A program made the position numbers and the translations under genes. The notes beneath the pieces are model-generated. The model saw only the letters and a list, made by a program, of their open reading frames with translations. It ran no database searches and had not been told where the DNA came from. DNA of 63,818 nucleotides, the filler included, from Kipferlia bialata (Eukaryota): NCBI GenBank assembly GCA_003568945.1. It is 6 parts of 6 records of this genome, joined end to end, with 100 filler letters (N's around TTAATTAATTAA, not from the genome) between each part and the next. Parts side by side here need not be neighbours in the genome. Positions count along the whole stretch, not along the records: positions 1 to 11,578 come from BDIP01001223.1; 5 more parts are not named here. One strand, 5' to 3'. This document shows positions 10,401 to 11,578 of this stretch, piece after piece (position 1 is the stretch's first letter; every line of letters begins with the position of its first letter).

Positions 10401-11578
10401 ATACTATGACAAGTATGCAATACATAGAGTATATCACATATATAGTATACACTGTATACCTTAGCCTATAGAGCATGAGTGACTCTGAGTCCATCGGGTG
10501 GGAGGCAAAGACACCGTAAACACATATCTCTGGGGTCAGAAACCAATGGATACAATAGTAATTACAAGTTAAATTTCTCACCCAATACAGCATTAGCCAG
10601 TTCTTCAGGCCCTGCCTTGATCACCCCTGAACATGTATACAATATACATTTAATGTAAATACATATATAGTAACACTAACTAACCTAACACTGCATTGGC
10701 CAGCTCCTCCGGCTCTGCCTTGATCAATACCACCAGGTATACAATATACAATTAATGTAAATACATATATATAGCACCACTAACTAACCTAACACTGCAT
10801 TGGCTAGCTCCTCCGGCTCTGCCTTGATTACCCACCAAGTAAATATATACTACTAGTATATATAATATATAGATATGTACCTAGCACAGCATTAGCAAGT
10901 TCCTCTGGCTCTGCCTTGATCACCCACCAAGTATATACCAATGTAAATACAATTATAGTAAAACTAACTAACCTAGCACAGCGTTAGCCAGTTCCTCCGG
11001 CTCTGCCTTGATGAGCTGTTGAGGGAGTGGGAGTCTGATCTCCCCATTTCTGAAACGGGAGTCGAAGCGCATGCTCTGGTTCATCCTGGTGGTTAGACAA
11101 TATATATTAATACACACGGTGGAATAATACATGTGTCACAATAACTGTGATACTCACCTCCCATCCTCTGTAGATGCTGCATTCTCTACTCTAGCAACAA
11201 CAGTCTTACAGGACACATGGTTCAGACGGGACTGGGGTTAGATAGAGTTATATATCACATGAATATACCCAATAACATGTCTAGATCTCAAGATGACGCC
11301 ACACTGTATCATGTACCTGAATTGGCATTGACAGCCCCTGGATACTGGCAGAGACTGCTACCGAGTCAAAGAGAAGGCCGCCACCTGAAGGGTCAGAGAG
11401 AGAGAGAGAGAGATTCTCTGGATCGAGTACAACGTACAGTATATAGTATGAATATACAACAACAAACTCATATGGCAAAATATATACATCCAGAATTATA
11501 AAAGTAGTCTCTAAGTACCTGGGACTGAATCAAGGACAGGTATGAACATGGATGCCACCTCCCACACATCTATGGACA
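31..11578 (-). CDS. Large multi-exon hypothetical protein, internal fragment (~37 exons; both ends outside the window/scaffold)
   Basis: Hand splicing of GT-AG exons keeps one open frame: SIDVWEVASMFIPVLDSVPG|GGLLFDSVAVSASIQGLSMPIQ|SRLNHVSCKTVVARVE...LIKAEPEELANAVLE|ICVYGVFASHPMDSESLMLYRLR|VPDVARLFTQQ...|DPIRYANERVEELKAQ|VIEKRDTLVDMVIEALTILK...|AALESLEVLREDGGRERIAREVSSQ|SPLYRTVSG. Acceptors are YTNAC-CCCAG-like. No family recognised; the 5' part is possibly C2-like (weak inference). Confidence 0.8.

What the first reader, a model, noticed from the sequence alone, without database searches (positions are those of the whole stretch)
10578..11022. Five copies of IKAEPEELANAVL|GT with almost exclusively silent differences
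Real: CCG GAG GAA CTG GCT AAC GCT GTG CTA. Echoes: CCA GAG GAA CTT GCT AAT GCT GTG CTA; CCG GAG GAG CTA GCC AAT GCA GTG TTA; CCG GAG GAG CTG GCC AAT GCA GTG TTA; CCT GAA GAA CTG GCT AAT GCT GTA TTG. Across all four echoes there is one replacement (E to G), in the most distal copy. The neighbouring exon (10157-10530, ASHPMDSESLMLYRLR x3) shows the same pattern.
Basis: seen in the sequence. Interest (0 to 1): 0.75.

Follow-up and report, generated by a model that had tools for sequence, protein, structure and literature searches.

The report
Introns stocked with spare exon ends
In a free-living single-celled relative of Giardia, about half of the introns examined hold extra copies of the neighbouring exon's end, left out of the one assembled transcript available yet differing from the working exon about ten times more often at silent than at protein-changing positions, most likely because DNA recombination keeps swapping them with working versions of the gene from other cells.

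Summary
Confirmed and much wider than reported. The five copies are the real end of a 113-nt exon of a Kipferlia bialata gene (P0001, 100% identical) plus four 40-nt 'echoes' in the next intron, each followed by GT. A separately assembled DNA contig spans the array at single-copy depth; a spliced RNA contig uses only the outermost copy. The same architecture occurs in 71 of 144 modelled introns on all six contigs of the window, on donor and acceptor sides, and explains intron length (r=0.90). Echoes differ from the live exon at 146/652 four-fold but 54/2404 zero-fold sites (ratio 0.09, CI 0.05-0.13), whereas dead copies give about 0.5 in simulation. They keep full-strength splice signals and the organism's codon bias while their intron flanks have decayed to background, and exon part and flank share no clock. 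No canonical route splices them in. Best explanation (inferred): ectopic gene conversion/unequal exchange with live exon ends of other chromosomes, so echoes are captured alleles. No monotone age gradient; only the innermost echo is more loaded. Closest known: human junction-spanning minisatellites (F7 IVS7). Not found described for Kipferlia in 10 searches.

The parts
30..11549 (-). Host gene, 37 exons / 36 GT-AG introns, 912-aa hypothetical protein (P0001 = KIPB_005292, partial); no Pfam family, no homolog found
   Evidence: RNA contig colinear at 16/16 anchors between 4712 and 11084
10973..11085 (-). Live exon 4 (113 nt); its last 40 nt (10973-11012, IKAEPEELANAVL+G) are the copied segment
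   Evidence: RNA piece 10973-11084 with 0 other letters
10530..10972 (-). Intron 4 (443 nt) holding the four donor-side echoes; innermost GT-AG span 52 nt
10881..10920 (-). Echo 1 (+GT at 10880), 3 silent differences; intron flank unlike the live flank
10789..10828 (-). Echo 2 (+GT at 10788), 6 silent differences; flank homologous to the live flank
10685..10724 (-). Echo 3 (+GT at 10684), 5 silent differences; flank homologous to the live flank
10582..10621 (-). Echo 4, innermost (+GT at 10581), 7 differences, one replacement E>G
10460..10529 (-). Live exon 5 (70 nt); last 49 nt copied (ASHPMDSESLMLYRL)
10337..10385 (-). Donor echo of exon 5 (+GT), silent differences only
10235..10298 (.). Assembly gap; bridged by 9 letters in a contig at about twice single-copy depth, probably hiding one more near-identical unit
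   Evidence: inference
10159..10207 (-). Donor echo of exon 5 (+GT), silent differences only
10054..10078 (-). Acceptor-side echo (branch point + AG + first 25 nt of exon 6), the mirror-image type
3061..3793 (-). Six donor echoes in intron 27 of the same gene: exon parts 0-1 differences, flanks unrelated
4885..5378 (-). Donor array in intron 23 with mosaic silent variants (one four-gamete-incompatible pair) and one echo identical to live over 40 nt with an unrelated flank
44141..44779 (+). Six acceptor echoes in one intron of an unrelated gene on another contig (example of the window-wide pattern)

Best explanation
The copies are short head-to-tail duplicates of an exon-intron junction that lie inside the intron and are left out of the one assembled transcript available, and they likely stay protein-faithful because recombination keeps exchanging them with the working exon end on other chromosomes of the population, so each echo is in effect a recently captured allele. 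Steps. (1) Shown: a duplication copies 10-55 nt of exon end plus GT and about 60 nt of intron (or intron end, branch point, AG plus exon start); it never covers a whole exon, so the echo has one splice site and no partner. (2) Shown for the host gene, inferred for the others: the spliceosome takes the outermost sites, although echo sites score as high as live ones and the innermost pair spans a normal-sized intron; this points to exon definition (inferred). (3) Inferred from shared far edges: one founding junction per array, later multiplied by unequal exchange between copies. (4) Shown: echoes carry the marks of translated sequence (amino acids, codon preference, splice signals) far beyond dead copies, and their exon parts do not follow the history of their flanks. 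(5) Inferred: misaligned pairing between homologs converts echoes with live exon ends of other haplotypes; silent differences are then allelic diversity, and replacements are the few mutations since the last capture. A coalescent fits with exchange about 3 per N generations per copy and theta about 0.05-0.12. This implies outcrossing or another contact between divergent chromosomes. Loss of NHEJ and Rad51A with two Dmc1 paralogs in fornicates would favour such exchange (published gene inventory; link inferred).
For: Silent excess: 4-fold 146/652 vs 0-fold 54/2404; host gene 76/236 vs 7/795; d0/d4 0.086 (CI 0.054-0.132), host gene 0.021, other genes 0.156 (0.10-0.24). Dead-copy simulation with the same filter 0.50-0.59, minimum 0.32. 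Exchange within one chromosome only: 0.41-0.50 in all 9 settings; between homologs 0.03-0.20 at Nc 1-10. In multi-echo arrays all 36 shared variants are silent; all 34 replacements are private to one echo. Flanks at background in 70/80 donor and 43/50 acceptor echoes, yet GT kept 81/84, AG 54/60, and the dinucleotides change at about the 0-fold rate (4/166, 6/114). Four-fold divergence is the same whether flanks are clearly homologous (33/140) or not (218/878): ratio 0.95, CI 0.64-1.38, clock-like simulation 0.16-0.31; within-array exon-flank correlation 0.08, p=0.29. Codon bias kept: G>A at Lys/Glu/Gln third positions 2/172 vs 20/181 at 4-fold sites, p=8e-5 (distinct sites 2/114 vs 18/111, p=1e-4). 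Arrays of 4+ copies are more diverse at 4-fold sites (0.36, 0.29 vs 0.17, 0.15), as a pooled-allele model predicts. No canonical RNA route: acceptor before a donor echo 3/80, donor after an acceptor echo 6/52, spacing mod 3 even 47/47/46; RNA contig colinear with the echo-free model. Repair-gene inventory: PMC8516963 section 8; Dmc1 mismatch tolerance: PMC6719624 abstract.
Against: No second strain or allele was seen: no other letters in X1 contigs and single-contig depth over exons at 8748-9455 and 10872-11343 (contigs drop variants), one protein only in the database, nothing in two metagenome scans. So allelic diversity and sex are assumed, not observed. Copy number versus diversity is weak (Spearman p=0.096) and confounded with gene; replacement load falls with copy number (0.030 to 0.009) where the simple model has it rise. 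Only 2 of 8 informative site pairs are four-gamete incompatible, and recurrent mutation can do that. Acceptor echoes alone are only modestly below the dead-copy line (omega 0.25-0.32, p 0.002-0.04), as are genes other than the host gene by the NG-type count (p 0.0007-0.048). Replacements are not significantly conservative (BLOSUM p=0.13). The clock simulation assumes exponential pair ages. Ten of the 11 genes rest on my own models without RNA check. RNA evidence is one contig of a run whose RNA nature is a guess; minor isoforms would be lost.
Confidence: 0.6

Rival explanations
1. Echoes are under direct selection because a minority of transcripts (or of cells, after a frequent DNA loop-out) use them as the exon end, by a homology-guided join between live exon and echo; conversion within the array decouples them from their flanks.
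For: Everything that shows translation-type constraint fits direct use; splice signals are full strength; no need for high diversity or sex; observed in-echo gaps include in-frame ones (one 3-nt gap, others seen by eye).
Against: The one RNA contig carries the live letters to the last base and no echo; no partner splice sites and no frame preference in spacing; exon ends do not score as acceptors, so no ratchet (median 1.7 vs 11.2 for real acceptors); the other two gaps found were 1 and 4 nt; DNA depth is flat over the array at contig level. Frequent loop-out within one chromosome would homogenise copies.
Confidence: 0.2
2. Exchange is with divergent homologs held in the same cell or templated by their transcripts (polyploidy, heterokaryon, old asexual divergence), without outcrossing.
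For: Needs only a second divergent template, which gives the same coalescent as between-homolog exchange; an mRNA template would convert exon parts only, matching the decoupling; transcript-templated repair is discussed for this group in PMC8516963 (passages).
Against: No second haplotype at 90% identity or more among X1 contigs over several exons, and none among X2 contigs (1 record laid); the cell's own mRNA would erase silent differences, not supply them.
Confidence: 0.1
3. Echoes are dead duplicates; the silent excess arises only because the live exon changes silently while echoes decay at random.
For: This explains a sea-urchin case in this scan (e1-9861148, 43/107 silent; not checked here). 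Some echoes here are clearly dead: 8 without GT/AG have pN 0.089, 3 carry stops, one has 7 replacements.
Against: Predicts a ratio of 0.5 or more; observed 0.09, upper bound 0.13; predicts echoes decaying like their flanks and G>A at K/E/Q codons at the neutral rate.
Confidence: 0.05
4. Assembly artefact: divergent haplotypes or strains stacked in tandem.
For: Copies look like alleles; the assembly is short-read and has gaps inside arrays.
Against: A separately assembled contig reproduces the whole array letter for letter at single-copy depth; intron-to-mid-exon junctions exist in no single haplotype, so stacking needs real molecules; all four echoes share one upstream junction motif.
Confidence: 0.03

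Closest known systems
Splice-junction-spanning minisatellites of human genes: F7 IVS7 (37 bp), interferon-inducible 6-16 intron 2, CBS IVS13, LMNB2 (100 bp), PDGF intron 4 (81 bp) (PMC1557585, abstract and passages)
   Same: Tandem units whose first element spans the exon-intron border; functional-looking donor pseudo-sites downstream; the most upstream site is used (F7, LMNB2, PDGF); unit size about 100 nt as here (median 106).
   Different: Known as a handful of single loci with donor sites 'strictly identical' (F7) and 4 exon nt in the F7 unit; here 71/144 introns, donor and acceptor sides, 10-55 nt of coding sequence, flanks decayed while the coding part shows purifying selection and codon bias.
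Intron gain by tandem duplication (AG|GY proto-splice model, PMC2891723 passages; potato RdRp duplication across an intron-exon border, PMC4974935 abstract)
   Same: Local duplication crossing an exon-intron border, inheriting branch point and 3' site.
   Different: There a new intron is made; here no new intron arises, the old one lengthens by about 110 nt per echo and the copy stays in the intron.
Silent donor cassettes renewed by gene conversion (chicken Ig pseudo-V, trypanosome VSG, Neisseria pilS; recalled, no call)
   Same: Untranslated partial copies that look coding because they exchange sequence with an expressed locus.
   Different: Those are dedicated arrays selected for amino-acid diversity at one locus; here tiny arrays in ordinary genes (UBC, Kelch, PH-domain, exonuclease-like) that avoid amino-acid change.
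Tandem duplicated, mutually exclusive exons (U2AF1 exons 3/Ab, PMC5224494 search listing; Dscam recalled)
   Same: Exon-derived copies in tandem with silent-biased divergence.
   Different: Those have both splice sites and enter mRNA; echoes have one site, cover at most 80% of the exon and are absent from the RNA contig.
Recursive splicing ratchet points and nested introns/stwintrons (recalled; PMC8469720 listing only)
   Same: Extra donor and acceptor sites inside an intron, donors upstream of acceptors in 21 of 22 introns with both.
   Different: Echo ends do not score as acceptors and exon starts are not GT-enriched (12/42 vs 19/102); neither would explain codon-phase conservation.

Membership tests
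Junction-spanning minisatellite with pseudo-splice sites (F7 IVS7 type) | Tandem units, first unit spans the exon-intron border | tested here: met
Junction-spanning minisatellite with pseudo-splice sites (F7 IVS7 type) | Consensus splice sites reiterated in the intron, outermost one used | tested here: met
   scores equal to live; RNA contig, host gene only
Junction-spanning minisatellite with pseudo-splice sites (F7 IVS7 type) | Units near-identical over their whole length | tested here: not met
   flanks at background in 113 of 130 live-echo pairs; only exon parts are conserved
Junction-spanning minisatellite with pseudo-splice sites (F7 IVS7 type) | Copy number polymorphic between individuals | not testable with these tools
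   no second strain found
Intron gain by tandem duplication | A new intron is spliced between the duplicated copies | tested here: not met
   one intron from outermost GT to outermost AG
Mutually exclusive / alternative duplicated exons | Each copy has an acceptor and a donor | tested here: not met
   3/80 and 6/52 have a partner site above the 10th percentile of live sites
Mutually exclusive / alternative duplicated exons | Copies appear in some mRNAs | tested here: inconclusive
   absent from the single RNA contig; contigs drop minor forms
Recursive splicing ratchet points | AG before the echo GT works as an acceptor with a branch point | tested here: not met
   acceptor score at echo ends median 1.7, 90th percentile 5.8; real acceptors median 11.2
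Dead (neutral) partial duplicates | Replacement/silent ratio against the live copy 0.5 or more | tested here: not met
   0.086, CI 0.054-0.132; simulation 0.50-0.59
Gene-conversion donor cassettes | Sequence exchange between silent copy and expressed copy, limited to the homologous part | tested here: inconclusive
   decoupling from flanks supports exchange; no event observed directly
Gene-conversion donor cassettes | Donors diversify the protein | tested here: not met
   shared variants 36 silent, 0 replacement

The most novel reading that the evidence does not exclude
Kipferlia keeps, in tens of thousands of introns, an interchangeable stock of exon ends that the cell really uses: a homology-guided join (on RNA, or as a frequent regulated DNA swap) replaces the live exon end with an echo without any canonical partner splice site, which would be a new route from gene to mRNA operating genome-wide.
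Probability: 0.15. Interest if true: 0.93.

Novelty: new variant of a known kind. Interest (0 to 1): 0.76.

Why it matters
First, architecture: about half of the introns and 49% of intron bases in the modelled genes (15,893 of 32,597 nt above a 116-nt baseline) come from junction duplication; scaled to the 124,912 introns reported for the species (PMC5874029) that would be some 60,000 introns (extrapolation from six contigs). That is a mode of intron growth known only from scattered loci. Second, splicing: thousands of natural competitions between equally strong sites, won by the outermost pair even though the inner pair has normal intron size, make exon definition testable in a lineage with a reduced spliceosome (87 of 174 proteins, no snRNA candidates found; PMC6679479 passages). 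Third, population genetics: if echoes are captured alleles, one genome holds a sample of its population's alleles and gives evidence for cryptic sex and a diversity estimate in a free-living relative of Giardia, and a natural read-out of recombination without NHEJ and Rad51A. If instead they are used in mRNA, the mechanism is unknown.

Tried and rejected
No whole genome was held, so all counts are from the window. No RNA holder was listed as on record; X2 is a guessed RNA run, and bins without X2 cover (10164-10399, 10636-10871) are not used as evidence on their own, only the contig's colinear coordinates. RNA check of a second gene could not be made, so splicing to the outermost sites is shown for one gene only. 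De novo gene finder: included echoes as false exons or over-masked; replaced by hand-built models checked for GT-AG and open frame; stretches 11679-12900, 35009-37500, 46662-54380 and 58310-59500 were not modelled. Four of 144 echoes were dropped before codon counts (three in the internally repetitive Gly/Met exons of the p23-like gene, one offset duplicate call). Monotone age gradient: not found. Adjacent copies more alike: no for exon parts (p=1.0), weak for flanks (p=0.10). Gradient along the echo: acceptors 0.16 near vs about 0.39 farther out, donors flat; weak. Microsatellite at the far junction: 28/91 vs 23% background, not convincing. Conservative replacements: p=0.13. Independent displacement of the live end at each event: rejected, echoes in an array share their far edge (40,40,40,40; 49,49; 22,22,22) and junction motif. 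Function of the host protein: no Pfam hit, no homolog; the ESM Atlas did not answer. Second strains: two metagenome scans empty. Literature: 10 searches found no description of these copies in Kipferlia; the genome paper has 0 hits for 'duplicat', 'polymorph', 'heterozyg', 'ploid' (sections 7 and 12 read, supplements not seen, where intron statistics could be). Subscription journals are not covered.

Full report
What the finding is. The five copies lie on the minus strand as stated. A search with the exon returned one protein, 100% identical, named by its source as hypothetical protein KIPB_005292 of Kipferlia bialata, a free-living fornicate related to Giardia. Mapping that protein back gave 37 exons and 36 GT-AG introns from 11549 to 30. 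The outermost copy (10973-11012) is the end of exon 4; the other four lie in intron 4, each 40 nt long, each followed by GT. The protein has no Pfam family and no homolog in the searches run; its function plays no part here.

It is real and it is not spliced in. DNA run X1, assembled by another program but perhaps from the same sample, has a 1065-nt contig that spans the whole array with no other letter at depth 424, against 419-423 for single-copy neighbours. The putative RNA run X2 has one 3378-nt contig with CT..AC joints; its coordinates are colinear with the echo-free model at 16 of 16 anchors between 4712 and 11084, and it carries the live letters to the last exon base. Minor isoforms would not show in contigs.

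It is everywhere in the window. The window is six contigs joined by linkers. I modelled 11 genes (12 models, 144 introns); only the host gene has an outside model and RNA support, the rest are my own, checked for canonical sites and open frame. 71 of 144 introns hold 144 echoes: 84 donor-side (exon end + GT + intron start) and 60 acceptor-side (intron end + branch point + AG + exon start). All six contigs have them (18/36, 18/27, 14/37, 16/17, 2/7, 3/20 introns). Non-cognate exon ends gave 2 hits in 2861 trials. Intron length is 116 + 110 nt per echo, r=0.90. Echoes cover a median 40% and at most 80% of the exon; donor echoes lie upstream of acceptor echoes in 21 of 22 introns with both, so no exon-like pair forms. 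Echoes of one array share their far edge and junction motif, which points to one founding duplication multiplied later.

The silent excess is beyond dead copies. If only the live exon is protected, the replacement/silent rate ratio between live and echo cannot fall much below 0.5; a simulation with the same detection filter gave 0.50-0.59, lowest 0.32 in 240 sets. Observed, on 140 echoes in 91 arrays (4 dropped): finding array 11 silent to 1; all arrays 144 to 75 distinct variants, omega 0.19 (CI 0.12-0.29); four-fold 146/652 against zero-fold 54/2404, corrected ratio 0.086 (0.054-0.132); host gene 0.021; other genes 0.156. The effect is strongest in the host gene and in donor echoes; acceptor echoes alone are only modestly below 0.5. 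All 36 variants shared among echoes are silent and all 34 replacements in multi-echo arrays are private. Echoes also keep the organism's codon preference: the models use AAG/GAG/CAG 670 times and AAA/GAA/CAA 26 times, and echoes show G>A at those positions in 2 of 172 sites, the zero-fold rate, against 20 of 181 at four-fold sites. GT is kept in 81/84 and AG in 54/60, and echo sites score as high as live ones. Meanwhile the intron flanks of 113 of 130 live-echo pairs are no more alike than unrelated introns. A minority are plainly dead: lost signals go with 3.6 times the replacement load, and three carry stops.

Exon part and flank share no clock. Four-fold divergence is 0.236 in pairs with clearly homologous flanks and 0.248 in pairs without (ratio 0.95, CI 0.64-1.38); clock-like paralogs give 0.16-0.31 in simulation. 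In the finding array, echoes 2 and 3 share the live flank but differ at 5-6 silent sites, while echo 1 differs at 3 and has an unrelated flank. So exon parts have been exchanged on their own.

Mechanism. There is no canonical way for echoes to reach mRNA: partner sites are rare (3/80, 6/52), spacing ignores frame, and echo ends are not acceptors. That leaves DNA exchange. A structured coalescent shows that exchange within one chromosome leaves the ratio at 0.41-0.50, whereas exchange with copies on other chromosomes gives 0.07-0.10 at about 3 events per N generations and needs theta of 0.05-0.12 to reach the observed silent divergence. I therefore read echoes as captured alleles: their silent differences are population diversity, their few replacements are the time since capture. 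This is inference: no second allele or strain was seen, and the copy-number predictions are only partly met. Metamonads lack NHEJ and all examined fornicates lack Rad51A and have two Dmc1 paralogs (PMC8516963 section 8); Dmc1 stabilises mismatched joints (PMC6719624 abstract). That is a fitting background, not a test. Rivals: direct use by an unknown homology-guided join (0.2), divergent templates within one cell (0.1), dead copies (0.05), misassembly (0.03). Separately, outermost-site choice despite equally strong inner sites that span a normal intron (median 94 vs 102 nt) suggests exon definition; first-come scanning as shown for F7 would explain the donor side but not the choice of the last acceptor.

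Comparison. The closest known kind is the junction-spanning minisatellite with silent pseudo-sites (F7 IVS7, 6-16, CBS, LMNB2, PDGF; PMC1557585, abstract and passages); I was led to it by earlier notes of this scan. It works like these in layout and site choice but fails on uniform units, and differs in scale, in having acceptor-side arrays, and in the selection signature. It is not intron gain by duplication (PMC2891723 passages, PMC4974935 abstract), nor the short direct repeats at intron borders of PMC11782384 (abstract). The species' genome paper reports 124,912 introns and does not mention duplication in its main text (PMC5874029: passages, sections 7 and 12; supplements not seen). Ten searches found no description (listed under Tried and rejected). 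Donor cassettes, Dscam and ratchet points are recalled, not from a call.

Verdict. Real, window-wide, apparently undescribed; new variant of a known kind; interest 0.76. The pattern is shown, the cause is inferred and can be settled by raw RNA reads and a second isolate.

Noticed in passing
window 11579-11678, 23252-23351, 34909-35008, 46562-46661, 58210-58309: N/TTAATTAATTAA linkers: the window is six separate contigs of about 11.5 kb, many ending in poly-C/G runs.
   Followed up: yes
window 30-11549 (-), all 36 introns: Branch point sits 6-10 nt before the 3' AG with no separate pyrimidine tract (CTNAY-N2-4-YAG), and exons end in AG in 29/36 and G in 35/36.
   Followed up: partly
all modelled genes: Near-total avoidance of AAA, GAA, CAA (26 vs 670 for the G-ending codons) and of TTA in the host gene (0 of 84 Leu).
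   Followed up: partly
window 16575-19135 (+): p23/Sba1-like gene (name recalled from motifs; no Pfam hit on the one exon tested) whose Gly/Met-rich tail is built of duplicated complete exons, so here junction duplication seems to have produced real protein repeats.
   Followed up: no
window 22050-23055 (-): Ubiquitin-conjugating enzyme gene (UQ_con, E 9.5e-5 on one exon) with a Lys/Asp-rich tail; echoes in all 3 modelled introns.
   Followed up: partly
window 28103-32219 (+): Exonuclease III / AP-endonuclease-like gene (recalled from motifs; no Pfam hit on two short exons), 15 echoes in 13 introns.
   Followed up: partly
window 37539-45621 (+) versus 59628-63550 (-): Echo density differs strongly between genes: 38 echoes in 17 introns against 3 in 20; cause unexplained.
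   Followed up: no
window 35900-37225 (-): Adaptin large subunit (Adaptin_N, E 9e-31) in one 1.3-kb exon, unusual in this intron-dense genome; Kelch gene at 54415-57715 also has long exons and few echoes.
   Followed up: no
window 26781-26884 (+): An 84-nt poly-C stretch inside a gene where the frame does not join up; probably an assembly fault hiding sequence.
   Followed up: partly
window 17635 (+), 19626 (-): Two modelled acceptors end in AAG rather than YAG.
   Followed up: no
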